Assembly: GCF_024223415.1 (NCBI RefSeq)
Contig: NZ_CP100500.1
DNA: 64,000 nt
DNA from: Escherichia coli
GTDB lineage: Bacteria > Pseudomonadota > Gammaproteobacteria > Enterobacterales > Enterobacteriaceae
Strand: one strand, 5' to 3'
Both the position numbers and the translations under genes were made by a program. This document shows positions 10,187 to 41,870 of the stretch, one piece after another. Each line of letters starts with the position of its first letter. The first letter of the stretch is position 1. Below the pieces are notes generated by a model. It saw only the letters and a list, made by a program, of their open reading frames with translations. It searched no databases and was not told the origin of the DNA.

Positions 10187-10227
10187 GCGCGCTTTTAGAG
10201 CACGCATTTTTTCATACTCTAAATAAT

Positions 10228-10340
10228 TCGAGTTGCAGGAAGGCGACAAGAGAGTGAATCCCCAGGAGCTTACATAAGTAAGTGACTGGGGTGAGCGAAC
10301 GCAGACGCAGCACATGCAACTTGAAGTATGACGAGTATAA
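10228..10340. repeat. ERIC/IRU intergenic repeat
   Basis: Contains GTGAATCCCCAGGAGCTTACATAAGTAAGTGACTGGGGTGAGCG, matching the ERIC core (ERIC1R/ERIC2 primer sites) as I remember it. Confidence 0.8.
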
Positions 10341-10365: not shown

Positions 10366-11445
10366 ATGTCTAAGATTTTTGATTTCGTAAAACCTGGCGT
10401 AATCACTGGTGATGACGTACAGAAAGTTTTCCAGGTAGCAAAAGAAAACAACTTCGCACTGCCAGCAGTAAACTGCGTCGGTACTGACTCCATCAACGCC
10501 GTACTGGAAACCGCTGCTAAAGTTAAAGCGCCGGTTATCGTTCAGTTCTCCAACGGTGGTGCTTCCTTTATCGCTGGTAAAGGCGTGAAATCTGACGTTC
10601 CGCAGGGTGCTGCTATCCTGGGCGCGATCTCTGGTGCGCATCACGTTCACCAGATGGCTGAACATTATGGTGTTCCGGTTATCCTGCACACTGACCACTG
10701 CGCGAAGAAACTGCTGCCGTGGATCGACGGTCTGCTGGACGCGGGTGAAAAACACTTCGCTGCTACCGGCAAGCCGCTGTTCTCTTCTCACATGATCGAC
10801 CTGTCTGAAGAATCTCTGCAAGAGAACATCGAAATCTGCTCTAAATACCTGGAGCGCATGTCCAAAATCGGCATGACTCTGGAAATCGAACTGGGTTGCA
10901 CCGGTGGTGAAGAAGACGGCGTGGACAACAGCCACATGGACGCTTCTGCACTGTACACCCAGCCGGAAGACGTTGATTACGCATACACCGAGCTGAGCAA
11001 AATCAGCCCGCGTTTCACCATCGCAGCGTCCTTCGGTAACGTACACGGTGTTTACAAGCCGGGTAACGTGGTTCTGACTCCGACCATCCTGCGTGATTCT
11101 CAGGAATATGTTTCTAAGAAACACAACCTGCCGCACAACAGCCTGAACTTCGTATTCCACGGTGGTTCCGGTTCTACTGCTCAGGAAATCAAAGACTCCG
11201 TAAGCTACGGCGTAGTGAAAATGAACATCGATACCGATACCCAATGGGCAACCTGGGAAGGCGTTCTGAACTACTACAAAGCGAACGAAGCTTATCTGCA
11301 GGGTCAGCTGGGTAACCCGAAAGGCGAAGATCAGCCGAACAAGAAATACTACGATCCGCGCGTATGGCTGCGTGCCGGTCAGACTTCGATGATCGCTCGT
11401 CTGGAAAAAGCATTCCAGGAACTGAACGCGATCGACGTTCTGTAA
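10366..11445 (+). CDS. fbaA: fructose-bisphosphate aldolase class II
   Basis: Starts MSKIFDFVKPGVITGDDVQKVF, 359 aa; the track ORF N-terminal extension runs through the ERIC repeat and is rejected. Confidence 0.95.
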   Translation: MSKIFDFVKPGVITGDDVQKVFQVAKENNFALPAVNCVGTDSINAVLETAAKVKAPVIVQFSNGGASFIAGKGVKSDVPQGAAILGAISGAHHVHQMAEHYGVPVILHTDHCAKKLLPWIDGLLDAGEKHFAATGKPLFSSHMIDLSEESLQENIEICSKYLERMSKIGMTLEIELGCTGGEEDGVDNSHMDASALYTQPEDVDYAYTELSKISPRFTIAASFGNVHGVYKPGNVVLTPTILRDSQEYVSKKHNLPHNSLNFVFHGGSGSTAQEIKDSVSYGVVKMNIDTDTQWATWEGVLNYYKANEAYLQGQLGNPKGEDQPNKKYYDPRVWLRAGQTSMIARLEKAFQELNAIDVL

Positions 11446-11470
11446 GATATTCCTTTCTGCTTATCTCAAG

Positions 11471-11494
11471 GCCCGCTCTGCGGGTCTTTTTTTT
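11471..11494 (+). terminator. rho-independent terminator of epd-pgk-fbaA
   Basis: cccgc-tct-gcggg hairpin followed by T8. Confidence 0.8.
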
Positions 11495-11509
11495 GCCAAA
11501 AGAAAAATT

Positions 11510-11610
11510 GCCTGATGCGCTACGCTTATCAGGCCTACACGTATCCTGCAATATATTGAATTCGCAGGTTTTTGTAGGCCGGATAAGGCGTTCACGCCGC
11601 ATCCGGCATG
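11510..11610. repeat. BIME: two REP palindromic units in opposite orientation
   Basis: gcctgatgcgctacgcttatcaggcctac and gtaggccggataaggcgttcacgccgcatccggcatg. Confidence 0.8.
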
Positions 11611-11638
11611 ACAAAGCGCACATTGATATCTGTCTGAG

Positions 11639-11661
11639 CCCCGCTCTGCGGGTCTTTTTTT
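11639..11661 (+). terminator. second copy of the fbaA terminator hairpin plus T7
   Basis: Near-identical cccgctctgcgggtcttttttt repeated about 165 bp downstream of the first copy, on the far side of the BIME. Confidence 0.6.
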
Positions 11662-11803
11662 CGCCAAAAGCAAGGTGATACAGATGAGAAATCTGTGATC
11701 TATTTGGCAAAATTATGCTTTATTGTTTACCCTTGTCAGACTGCCCGTCATAAGGCGGCGGAGTGTATTTCTCCATTTTGAGTCAGTTGAAAAGGAATAT
11801 TGA

Positions 11804-12679
<876 letters not shown>

Positions 12680-37631: not shown

Positions 37632-37704
37632 GCTTGTTAATAAAGTGCGCTTTGTGTGTCGGATGAAGCGTAAATATAAAATCCTGGAGTTCAATATATG
37701 ACAG

Positions 37705-37740
37705 GAGCGCCAGGCCTGATGAGCGGGGCGCATCAGGCAC
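37705..37740. repeat. REP-like palindrome between convergent gcvP and bglA
   Basis: gccaggcctgatgagcggggcgcatcaggc. Confidence 0.5.
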
Positions 37741-37749
37741 ATCGGGTAA

Positions 37750-39210
<1,461 letters not shown>

Positions 39211-40371: not shown

Positions 40372-40397
40372 CTTTGTAGGCCTGATAAGACGCGCCA
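40372..40397. repeat. left half of a REP palindromic unit split by the IS
   Basis: gcctttgtaggcctgataagacgcgcca ending in GCCA at the IS boundary. Confidence 0.7.
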
Positions 40398-41829: not shown

Positions 41830-41870
41830 GCCAGCGTCGCATCAGGCGATAAATGCCTGATGCGACACAG
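41830..41870. repeat. right half of the REP palindromic unit split by the IS
   Basis: gccagcgtcgcatcaggcgataaatgcctgatgcgac. Confidence 0.7.

What the first reader, a model, noticed from the sequence alone, without database searches (positions are those of the whole stretch)
11471..11661. Duplicated terminator hairpin bracketing a BIME between fbaA and mscS
The motif gcccgctctgcgggtc plus T-run plus gccaaaag occurs twice in direct orientation (11471-11500 and 11639-11670), separated by two REP units. The pattern looks like a composite element that carried or duplicated the terminator. It could provide tandem termination for the highly expressed epd-pgk-fbaA operon or mark a mobile BIME insertion with flanking duplication.
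Basis: seen in the sequence. Interest (0 to 1): 0.35.

Follow-up and report, generated by a model that had tools for sequence, protein, structure and literature searches.

The report
BIME-1 insertion duplicated the fbaA terminator
A small mobile repeat (a BIME-1 pair of REP sequences) landed on the transcription terminator of the aldolase gene fbaA and left a copy of that terminator on each side of itself; the same footprint appears at many other BIME-1 sites, which gives a clue to how these abundant bacterial repeats insert.

Summary
A 37-nt direct repeat (11469-11505 and 11637-11673, 34/37 identical, 168 nt apart) holds the fbaA terminator hairpin, its T-run and GCCAAAAG. It brackets a 131-nt BIME-1: Y-REP, L linker with an IHF-like site, Z1-REP and a right-end motif.

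About 31% of 5,425 complete E. coli genomes, including UTI89, are exactly 168 bp shorter, with one hairpin and no BIME. About 45 other enterobacterial species also have a single-hairpin spacer of about 190 nt. Rare alleles carry three hairpins and two BIMEs. So the BIME-1 inserted at the terminator with a target duplication, and the repeats now drive gain and loss of copies.

Published K-12 Term-seq shows RNA 3' ends at both copies. The first dominates; the second appears only at OD 2.0.

This is not special to fbaA. In 22 distinct BIME-1 loci from metagenomes, 10 have a locus-specific GC hairpin directly repeated against both element ends. At all 5 loci checked, the empty site holds exactly one hairpin.

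The fbaA case is atypical in one respect: the duplication also copied the U-tract, so the gene-proximal copy still terminates.

I found no description of this footprint in the papers I could read. The key 1997 paper was not available.

The parts
10366..11445 (+). fbaA coding sequence (class II fructose-bisphosphate aldolase); stop codon TAA at 11443-11445
   Evidence: The ORF runs to 11445. It is annotated as fbaA in matching E. coli genomes. The ATG is visible at 10366.
11469..11505 (+). Direct-repeat copy 1. This is the working fbaA intrinsic terminator: hairpin 11468-11488 (core CCCGC-TCT-GCGGG at 11472-11484), U-tract 11487-11494, then GCCAAAAGAAA.
   Evidence: The orthologous position in K-12 is the dominant fbaA RNA 3' end (3070118/9) in all three Term-seq conditions.
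11506..11509 (+). AATT, all that clearly remains of the BIME-1 left-end motif. The canonical motif is TGAGACTGATGACAAACGCAAAA(T/C)T.
   Evidence: Comparison with 11 complete BIME-1 copies.
11510..11538 (+). Y-type REP in iREP orientation (GCCTGATGCGCTACGCTTATCAGGCCTAC, ending in CTAC)
   Evidence: The inverted repeat with the second REP is (I1). The nomenclature follows PMC3333891.
11539..11573 (.). BIME-1 long (L) linker. It carries an IHF-consensus-like site, ATTCAATATATTG, on the minus strand at 11549-11561 (1 mismatch to WATCAANNNNTTR).
   Evidence: In K-12 the L core TGCAANNNATTGAATTTGCA matches 60 BIME-1 copies in metagenomes; the window has one substitution in it. Rfam RF02751 (ES036/CssrF) hits 11531-11573 on the minus strand at 42.5 bits, above the gathering score of 37.6.
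11574..11608 (+). Z1-type REP (GTAGGCCGGATAAGGCGTTCACGCCGCATCCGGCA, starting with GTAG)
   Evidence: A sub-threshold naRNA4 (REP) Rfam hit covers it.
11609..11636 (+). BIME-1 right-end motif (TGACAAAGCGCACATTGATATCTGTCTG). The family consensus is TGAACAAAGCGCACTTTGTCAACAATCTG(A).
   Evidence: The E. whittamii ortholog matches the consensus almost exactly.
11637..11673 (+). Direct-repeat copy 2, a back-up terminator: hairpin 11640-11652 (weakened by a G-to-C change at 11639), U-tract 11655-11661, then CGCCAAAAGCAA.
   Evidence: The K-12 ortholog (CCCCGCTCTGCGGGGATTTTTT) gives an RNA 3' end at 3069950 in LB at OD 2.0.
11674..11803 (+). Conserved mscS upstream region (presumed promoter and 5' UTR), untouched by the insertion
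   Evidence: It is nearly identical in short and long alleles and across Escherichia species: 125/130 between K-12 and E. whittamii. A TGTGATC block is shared across Enterobacteriaceae. The promoter role is inferred.
11804..12679 (+). mscS coding sequence (small-conductance mechanosensitive channel)
   Evidence: annotation.

Best explanation
A BIME-1 element inserted at the intrinsic terminator of fbaA in an ancestor of E. coli and its close sister species. BIME-1 is the RIP/RIB class of REP doublet: Y-REP, long linker with an IHF site, Z1-REP and conserved end motifs. The insertion duplicated 37 bp of the target (terminator hairpin, U-tract and 11 nt), so the element is now bracketed by two direct copies 168 bp apart.

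Shown: the empty site contains exactly one copy. The difference between occupied and empty sites is exactly one period. The same geometry, a hairpin copy abutting each element end, recurs at many unrelated BIME-1 loci, each with its own local hairpin.

Inferred: the duplication arises because the two target strands are cut at opposite feet of the extruded hairpin. The cut is defined by structure, which would explain the variable duplication length of 18-37 bp. The element is then joined in and the gaps are filled. The enzyme is unknown. The REP-associated Y1 transposase (TnpA-REP/RAYT) is the obvious candidate, but its IS200/IS605 relatives make no target duplication.

Consequences at this locus:
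(a) Copy 1 kept a U-tract, so it remains the main fbaA terminator. Copy 2 catches read-through. Shown for K-12 by Term-seq; inferred for this strain.
(b) The direct repeats mediate unequal recombination or slippage, giving 1-, 2- and 3-hairpin alleles in nature.
(c) The mscS upstream region is left intact.
For: Structure and statistics.

Population: 3,724 of 5,425 E. coli genomes carry the long allele. All 12 sampled genomes from the remainder are exactly 168 bp shorter. The alignment shows one hairpin and no BIME in UTI89 and p11B.

Outgroups: about 45 species of Citrobacter, Klebsiella, Enterobacter, Kosakonia and others have a 174-194-nt fbaA-mscS spacer with one terminator.

Age: E. whittamii and Escherichia sp. 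E1V33 have the BIME at the same junctions.

Three-hairpin, two-BIME alleles: Escherichia sp. E1V33 (527 nt) and E. coli SW070917 (524 nt).

Generality: 22 distinct BIME-1 loci. In 7 of 22, the up/down flank match exceeds the 99th percentile of mismatched-pair controls. In 10 of 22, a hairpin is directly repeated within 0-4 nt of both element ends.

Empty sites with exactly one hairpin: pitA-uspB, metE-ysgA, artJ-rlmC and tcdA-mltA.

RNA 3' ends: fbaA 3070118/9 (scores 160555, 54607 and 120854) and 3069950 (44902, LB OD 2.0 only), from PMC7815308 supplementary file 1. At uspB, artJ and mltA the 3' end lies at the hairpin copy distal to the gene.
Against: No transposition event was observed; all evidence is comparative.

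The left-end motif of the element is missing at this locus, and the duplication is 12-19 nt longer than at canonical sites. The target sequence GCCAAAAGCAAAA resembles the missing motif GACAAACGCAAAA (11/13) at the same distance from the hairpin. The original event may therefore have been canonical (hairpin-only duplication) and later altered by a short conversion or microhomology event. I could not distinguish these.

I could not settle whether the short allele in E. coli (B2 strains and others) is retained from the ancestor or is a secondary deletion between the repeats. Both predict the same sequence.

E. albertii, E. fergusonii and Salmonella were not among the 80 loci returned.

Twelve of the 22 BIME-1 loci show no clear flanking repeat. 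These are decayed, truncated or different.

The Term-seq data are from K-12, whose copy 2 (GGGGATTTTTT) differs from this strain's (GGGTCTTTTTTT).

Known Y1 (IS200/IS605-type) transposition makes no target duplication (PMC3333891).
Confidence: 0.85

Rival explanations
1. The duplication came second and was not coupled to insertion. A BIME-1 first inserted just downstream of the terminator without any duplication. A later tandem duplication of the terminator-plus-BIME unit, followed by loss of one BIME, or a separate local duplication, produced the second hairpin.
For: The 168-nt unit does behave as a tandem repeat today: three-copy alleles exist. The long 37-nt repeat and the missing left-end motif make this locus atypical.
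Against: This needs three steps where one suffices. The same arrangement, hairpin-element-hairpin with a single-hairpin empty site, recurs independently at pitA-uspB, metE-ysgA, artJ-rlmC, tcdA-mltA and at least five more loci, each with its own hairpin. That is not expected from accidental secondary duplications. No allele of the form terminator-BIME without a second copy was seen among the sampled genomes.
Confidence: 0.06
2. The second hairpin exists because selection favoured a tandem terminator behind the highly expressed epd-pgk-fbaA operon, to shield mscS. On this view the BIME is incidental.
For: Both copies give RNA 3' ends in K-12. Copy 2 keeps a hairpin plus T-run in E. coli strains that have diverged at other positions.
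Against: About 31% of E. coli genomes and all outgroup genera manage with one terminator. In E. whittamii the copy-2 hairpin has decayed to GGCCGCCAGGATAGAGGGGA while the BIME persists. In this window copy 2 carries a stem-weakening change, -9.9 versus -14.1 kcal/mol. The same duplication occurs at loci where the proximal copy has no U-tract and does not terminate. Selection may help to maintain the copy, but it does not explain its origin.
Confidence: 0.07
3. Quasi-palindrome or template-switch extension. The BIME-1 is itself a long imperfect palindrome. Intramolecular strand switching during replication copied the flanking hairpin from one side to the other.
For: BIME-1 end motifs are inverted repeats, 12/16. 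The flanking sequences are themselves palindromic, so an inverted copy would look similar (inverted scores are also raised at L137 and L146).
Against: This model predicts that the second copy is the reverse complement of the first. Here the repeat includes the asymmetric T-run and GCCAAAAG in direct orientation. At tcdA-mltA, pitA-uspB and others the loop and the asymmetric stem positions are direct: direct versus inverted scores are 22 vs 9, 18 vs 6, 12 vs 7, 12 vs 8 and 11 vs 6.
Confidence: 0.02

Closest known systems
BIME-1 (also called RIP or RIB elements): Y and Z1 REP doublet with a long IHF-binding linker, at the 3' ends of E. coli transcription units
   Same: Two inverted REPs with GTAG/CTAC tags, a conserved L linker with an IHF-like site, a single unit, an extragenic position behind an operon, and presence/absence polymorphism between strains. 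That polymorphism is reported in PMC1187871, citing Bachellier 1997. The definition is in PMC3333891.
   Different: The descriptions I could read give BIME-1 as REP-L-REP of about 140 bp. They do not mention target duplications. Here, and at 9 other loci, the element is bracketed by a direct duplication of a local hairpin. The complete element is 153 bp with imperfect terminal inverted repeats.
Bacterial MITEs (for example Correia, ERIC/IRU, Nezha, RUP): non-autonomous elements with terminal inverted repeats and target-site duplications
   Same: A short element with no coding capacity, imperfect terminal inverted repeats, flanking direct repeats, filled and empty sites in related genomes, and the ability to fold into a long hairpin.
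   Different: MITE duplications are short and of fixed length (2-10 bp), set by a DDE transposase. Here the duplication is 18-37 bp and its length follows the size of the target hairpin. A review states that REPs do not display MITE signatures (PMC3184786).
REPIN/RAYT system and IS200/IS605 single-strand transposition
   Same: REP doublets are the proposed mobile unit. Hairpins are recognised as structures on single-stranded DNA. RAYT cuts at CT dinucleotides beside or at a distance from REPs and can take in flanking sequence (PMC3333891).
   Different: IS200/IS605-type transposition inserts 3' of a short target motif and makes no direct repeats. The published models for BIME spread do not predict a duplicated target hairpin.
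Mobile elements that home to intrinsic terminators, such as bacterial class C group II introns (recalled from memory, not tested here)
   Same: A terminator stem-loop serves as the landing site, which keeps insertions out of genes.
   Different: Those elements insert just after the hairpin and do not duplicate it.
Tandem intrinsic terminators (for example rrnB T1-T2) and deletion or expansion between short direct repeats
   Same: Two hairpin-plus-U-tract signals in series, with 3' ends at both. Direct repeats 168 bp apart generate 1-, 2- and 3-copy alleles.
   Different: The two terminators here are copies of one another, made as a by-product of an insertion, and are separated by a REP doublet.

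Membership tests
BIME-1 (RIP/RIB) | Two REP/PU sequences of types Y and Z1 in inverted orientation with GTAG/CTAC tetranucleotides | tested here: met
   11510-11538 ends in CTAC and 11574-11608 starts with GTAG. The arms are 93% complementary. The Y/Z1 assignment rests on sequence resemblance to the published types (plus my own knowledge).
BIME-1 (RIP/RIB) | Conserved long (L) linker carrying an IHF consensus | tested here: met
   ATTCAATATATTG at 11549-11561 on the minus strand has 1 mismatch to WATCAANNNNTTR. The K-12 allele matches the L core shared by 60 metagenomic BIME-1 copies. Rfam ES036 hits above the gathering score.
BIME-1 (RIP/RIB) | IHF actually binds | not testable with these tools
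   This needs a gel shift or ChIP.
BIME-1 (RIP/RIB) | A single unit, extragenic, at the 3' end of a transcription unit | tested here: met
   One unit lies between the fbaA stop codon and mscS. Rare alleles with two units arise by unequal recombination.
MITE-like transposable element | Flanking direct repeat that is single-copy in empty sites (target-site duplication) | tested here: met
   fbaA-mscS and four other loci.
MITE-like transposable element | Terminal inverted repeats | tested here: inconclusive
   The family consensus ends match 12/16 as inverted repeats. At this locus the left end is missing.
MITE-like transposable element | Short, fixed-length duplication and a cognate transposase with matching ends | tested here: not met
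   Duplication lengths are 18-37 bp and follow hairpin size. No cognate insertion sequence was identified, and I did not search for one systematically.
IS200/IS605-type (RAYT-mobilised) REPIN | Insertion without a target duplication | tested here: not met
   A duplication is present here and at 9 other loci. The family property is stated in PMC3333891.
IS200/IS605-type (RAYT-mobilised) REPIN | Mobilisation by TnpA-REP | not testable with these tools
   This needs biochemical or genetic work.
Intrinsic (Rho-independent) terminator, both copies | GC-rich hairpin immediately followed by a U-tract | tested here: met
Intrinsic (Rho-independent) terminator, both copies | RNA 3' ends in the U-tract in vivo | tested here: met
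   Term-seq in K-12: copy 1 in 3 of 3 conditions, copy 2 in 1 of 3. Not measured in the window strain, whose copy 2 differs by 3 positions.

The most novel reading that the evidence does not exclude
BIME-1 elements are a hairpin-homing class of miniature transposon. They integrate at GC-rich stem-loops, mostly intrinsic terminators, and duplicate the whole stem-loop. The target duplication is defined by structure and varies in length (18-37 bp), which implies staggered cleavage at the two feet of an extruded hairpin on opposite strands. This would explain three things: why BIMEs sit at operon 3' ends, why they end up inside 3' UTRs in front of a working terminator, and why they can be lost precisely. 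It is not predicted by current RAYT/IS200-type models, and I did not find it described in the literature I could read.
Probability: 0.45. Interest if true: 0.75.

Novelty: new variant of a known kind. Interest (0 to 1): 0.55.

Why it matters
REP/BIME sequences are among the most abundant repeats in enterobacterial genomes; about 580 REPs are reported in K-12. How they reach new sites is still open. The main mechanistic paper says that neither the mechanism nor the frequency is known.

A reproducible insertion footprint gives concrete predictions for RAYT biochemistry and for genetic trap assays. The footprint has three parts: the target is a terminator-like hairpin, the whole hairpin is duplicated, and the element has inverted-repeat ends.

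It also explains the genomic position of BIMEs at 3' ends. It shows how an insertion can be almost harmless: a working terminator is always regenerated on the far side. And it shows why BIME-1 presence/absence is such a frequent polymorphism: the duplication is a built-in excision and expansion device.

For annotation, it warns that paired look-alike terminators around a REP doublet are one event, not two independent signals.

At this locus it adds a usable natural series of 1, 2 or 3 terminators between a very highly expressed glycolytic operon and mscS.

Tried and rejected
- Chance repeat: rejected. None was found in 100 shuffles.
- The terminator was carried in by the element: rejected. The hairpin is the native fbaA terminator in genomes without the BIME, and each BIME-1 locus has its own hairpin.
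- A donor locus for the 26-28 nt after the Z1 REP: not needed. That stretch is the conserved BIME-1 right-end motif.
- Quasi-palindrome extension: rejected because the copies are direct, not inverted.
- Independent REP-type insertions with duplications at the same spacer in other genera: L026 (405 nt) and L038 (494 nt) show no direct repeats of 12 nt or more and no BIME.
- Literature search for a prior description. The following do not mention direct repeats or duplications flanking BIME-1: PMC3333891, PMC2817692, PMC3337134, PMC8049555, PMC3184786, PMC3733652, PMC12306157, PMC1187871 and PMC2884548. Bachellier 1997 (PMC1207841), Boccard and Prentki 1993 (PMC413762) and Gilson 1991 (PMC333889) are not held. 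Prior description therefore cannot be excluded.
- One paper search was wasted because 'mscS' matched mesenchymal stem cells.
- The Dar and Sorek Term-seq supplement is not held.
- The RefSeq K-12 record lists no repeat feature in this spacer.

Full report
**1. The observation**

The window is E. coli chromosome. fbaA ends at 11445 and mscS starts at 11804.

The repeat finder reports one direct-repeat family in the spacer: 11469-11505 and 11637-11673, 37 nt, 34/37 identical, 168 nt apart. The 31-nt core occurs exactly twice in 64 kb and never in 100 shuffles.

Each copy is a GC hairpin (CCCGC-TCT-GCGGG) followed by a T-run and GCCAAAAG. Both are called terminator-like. Copy 1 folds at -14.1 kcal/mol. 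Copy 2 carries a G-to-C change at the foot of its stem and folds at -9.9 kcal/mol.

**2. What lies between the copies**

The 131 nt between the copies are, in order:
- AATT
- a Y-type REP ending in CTAC (11510-11538)
- a 35-nt linker (11539-11573) with an IHF-like site (ATTCAATATATTG on the minus strand, one mismatch to the consensus)
- a Z1-type REP starting with GTAG (11574-11608)
- TGACAAAGCGCACATTGATATCTGTCTG (11609-11636)

This is the architecture of a BIME-1 as defined in PMC3333891: Y plus Z1, a long conserved L linker with an IHF site, and single-unit occurrence.

Rfam's ES036/CssrF family, in effect the L linker, hits 11531-11573 on the minus strand above its gathering score.

The last 28 nt are not locus-specific. 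The same motif follows the Z1 REP in a decayed BIME-1 elsewhere in the window (about 37640-37760, minus strand) and in most BIME-1 copies sampled from metagenomes.

**3. Comparison with other genomes**

A 451-nt query across the spacer was run against 5,426 complete E. coli genomes.
- It is covered in full in 3,724 genomes. All 12 sampled genomes from the remainder span exactly 168 bp less.
- UTI89 and p11B have a single hairpin, AAGGCCCGCTCTGCGGGTCTTTTTTTCGCCAAAAGCAAGGTGAT, and no BIME.
- K-12 has the long allele, with a 357-nt spacer.

A protein-guided scan of one genome per species returned 80 loci.
- In the 49 loci where the end of fbaA could be located, 45 non-Escherichia species had a spacer. 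These include Citrobacter, Klebsiella, Raoultella, Enterobacter, Kosakonia, Pluralibacter, Phytobacter, Leclercia and Buttiauxella. Forty-three of them have spacers of 158-218 nt, nearly all 174-194, each with one terminator hairpin.
- The one-hairpin state is therefore ancestral for the family.
- Within Escherichia, two divergent 'E. coli' species representatives are short (190 and 191 nt).
- E. whittamii is long (361 nt), but its second hairpin has decayed.
- Escherichia sp. E1V33 has 527 nt: three hairpins and two BIMEs.
- A three-hairpin allele also exists in E. coli strain SW070917. Its spacer is 524 nt, and copies 2 and 3 are identical, as expected from a recent unequal exchange in a K-12-like allele.

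The BIME in the sister species sits at the same junctions but is more diverged than the mscS upstream region: 117/136 identical between K-12 and E. whittamii, against 125/130. The insertion is old.

**4. Interpretation of the locus**

A BIME-1 inserted at the fbaA terminator, and 37 bp of target were duplicated. The two copies have since acted as substrates for unequal recombination or slippage, producing one-, two- and three-copy alleles.

I cannot tell whether today's short E. coli alleles are ancestral survivors or secondary deletions.
- A crossover within the 22 identical nucleotides CCCGCTCTGCGGGTCTTTTTTT of a window-like allele would regenerate exactly the UTI89 sequence.
- Short alleles occur on both flank haplotypes (GATATT... 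and GTCATT...) that also carry long alleles. This suggests recurrent loss or recombination.

**5. RNA evidence**

Adams et al. 2021 (PMC7815308, supplementary file 1) list curated 3' ends for K-12 MG1655.
- 3070119 or 3070118 (minus strand, 'primary, fbaA'): score 160,555 in LB at OD 0.4, 54,607 in LB at OD 2.0, and 120,854 in M63. By my coordinate conversion this is the fifth or sixth U of the copy-1 U-tract.
- 3069950 ('orphan'): score 44,902, in LB at OD 2.0 only. This is the last U of the copy-2 U-tract.

So copy 1 is the main terminator. Copy 2 yields a defined 3' end in stationary phase. That end could come from read-through, or from greater stability of the longer REP-containing RNA; the data do not say which.

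The window strain's copy 2 differs from K-12's (GGGTCTTTTTTTC against GGGGATTTTTTC). Its activity is therefore inferred, not shown.

**6. The pattern is general**

To see whether the flanking duplication is peculiar to fbaA, I scanned metagenome contigs for the L-linker core TGCAANNNATTGAATTTGCA.
- Of 120 matching stretches, 60 had REP tags on both sides. Fifty-three of these had full flanks, and they fall into 22 distinct genomic loci.
- Aligned on the L core, 11 loci show a complete element of constant length (153 nt). Its conserved ends are TGAGACTGATGACAAACGCAAAA on the left and AACAAAGCGCACTTTGTCAACAATCTG(A) on the right. These are imperfect inverted repeats, 12/16.
- In 8 of those 11, plus two loci with a truncated left end (fbaA-mscS and tcdA-mltA), a GC-rich hairpin specific to the locus is present in direct repeat within 0-4 nt of both element ends.
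- In a control that pairs the upstream flank of one locus with the downstream flank of another, the null maximum score is 11 and the 99th percentile is 10. Seven of the 22 true pairs exceed that percentile, with scores of 22, 18, 14, 14, 12, 12 and 11.
- Direct scores beat inverted scores at most of these loci.

**7. Empty sites at other loci**

Four further loci were checked against the E. coli genome collection.

| Locus | Genomes occupied | Unoccupied allele |
|---|---|---|
| pitA-uspB | 1,940 | 173 bp shorter; one hairpin, AAAAAAAGCGGGCCAGTAAACTGACCCGCTCGTTTT |
| metE-ysgA | none (occupied only in the metagenomic relative) | about 170 bp shorter; one hairpin |
| artJ-rlmC | 3,192 | one hairpin, AAAGCCGCACCTGCGGCTTTTTT |
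| tcdA-mltA | 2,751 | one hairpin |

With fbaA-mscS, that makes five of five loci in which the empty site holds exactly one copy of the sequence that flanks the element twice. The duplicated segment is the whole stem-loop, 18-27 bp at the canonical loci.

At bidirectional terminators the A-tract stays with the left copy and the T-tract with the right copy.

**8. How fbaA differs from the canonical case**

At canonical loci the gene-proximal hairpin loses its U-tract.
- K-12 Term-seq places the 3' ends of uspB (3639154), artJ (899644) and mltA (2945855) at the distal copy, after the BIME-1. The element there lies inside the 3' UTR.
- At fbaA the duplication extends 19 nt further, through the T-run and GCCAAAAGCAA, and the element's left-end motif is absent. 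The proximal copy therefore keeps a U-tract and still terminates.
- The target's GCCAAAAGCAAAA resembles the missing motif GACAAACGCAAAA (11/13) at the same distance from the hairpin. Two routes are possible. Either the left junction formed at this microhomology, or a canonical insertion was later patched by conversion from copy 2. The second route would have restored a terminator directly behind a very highly expressed gene.
- I could not discriminate between these routes.

**9. Mechanism (inference)**

A duplication whose length follows the size of the target stem-loop suggests cleavage positioned by structure rather than by a fixed stagger. Each strand would be cut at the same foot of its own hairpin (in single-stranded DNA or a cruciform), the element joined in, and the gaps filled.

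TnpA-REP (RAYT) binds REP hairpins, cuts at CT dinucleotides beside or at a distance from them, and was proposed to integrate BIMEs next to existing REPs. Terminator hairpins are REP-like in size and GC content.

However, IS200/IS605-type transposition makes no direct repeats. Either RAYT acts differently here or another activity is involved. The enzyme and the cut geometry remain untested.

**10. Novelty and caveats**

None of the nine papers I could read on REP, BIME, RAYT or REPIN mentions flanking direct repeats or target duplication for BIME-1. One review states that REPs lack MITE signatures.

The three older primary papers most likely to have noted the duplication are not held, so a prior description is possible.

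The sample is 22 loci, selected through an exact linker core. This favours young copies. Twelve of the 22 loci lack a clear repeat.

I rate the locus itself as an ordinary, old BIME-1 insertion polymorphism. The general footprint it exposes is a possibly new and mechanistically informative property of a known element class.

Noticed in passing
window 11804-12679: The mscS ORF encodes 291 aa and ends ...[15 protein letters not shown]-12 MscS has 286 aa ending ...KRVKEDKAA, and the annotated 861-nt mscS of UTI89 and O157 matches the K-12 length. This is an alternative C-terminal tail in this strain.
   Followed up: no
window 10211-10335: An ERIC/IRU repeat (…GAGTGAATCCCCAGGAGCTTACATAAGTAAGTGACTGGGGTGAGCG…) sits between pgk and fbaA. 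K-12 Term-seq lists an 'orphan' 3' end inside the orthologous element, at 3071314.
   Followed up: partly
window about 37640-37760, minus strand: A decayed BIME-1: Y-like REP, an L core of CATATATTGAAC, a degenerate second REP and the right-end motif CACAAAGCGCACTTTATTAACAAGCT. It is followed by a bidirectional terminator hairpin, AAAAAGGCGCCGAAGCGCCTTT. No matching hairpin copy is visible on the other side.
   Followed up: partly
window 11447-11456 and 11791-11800: A perfect 10-nt inverted repeat, ATATTCCTTT / AAAGGAATAT. One arm lies directly after the fbaA stop codon and the other covers the mscS Shine-Dalgarno region. In read-through RNA the arms could pair and occlude the mscS ribosome-binding site. 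Both arms are present in short and long alleles. This may be chance.
   Followed up: no
window 11446-11672: In the predicted fold of the full read-through RNA, the 5' arm of hairpin 1 pairs with the 3' arm of hairpin 2 and encloses the whole BIME (-81.1 kcal/mol, z = -4.6). This alternative structure exists only because the hairpin is duplicated.
   Followed up: no
window 11531-11573, minus strand: The BIME-1 L linker matches Rfam RF02751 (ES036/CssrF 'sRNA') above the gathering score. That Rfam family therefore seems to be the BIME-1 linker rather than a single-locus sRNA.
   Followed up: no
L006 (E. whittamii), fbaA-mscS spacer positions about 190-225: The second hairpin copy is replaced or decayed (GGCCGCCAGGATAGAGGGGA), while its T-run and CGCCAAAAGCAAGG remain. 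This suggests little constraint on copy 2 in that species.
   Followed up: partly
window 40376-40395 and 41838-41864: A truncated REP (GTAGGCCTGATAAGACGCGCC, followed by unrelated sequence) and a small REP-derived palindrome (CGCATCAGGCGATAAATGCCTGATGCG).
   Followed up: no
L026 (Intestinirhabdus alba) and L038 (Entomohabitans teleogrylli), fbaA-mscS spacers: These spacers are unusually long (405 and 494 nt). L026 contains an ERIC-like segment. Neither has a BIME or a direct repeat of 12 nt or more.
   Followed up: partly
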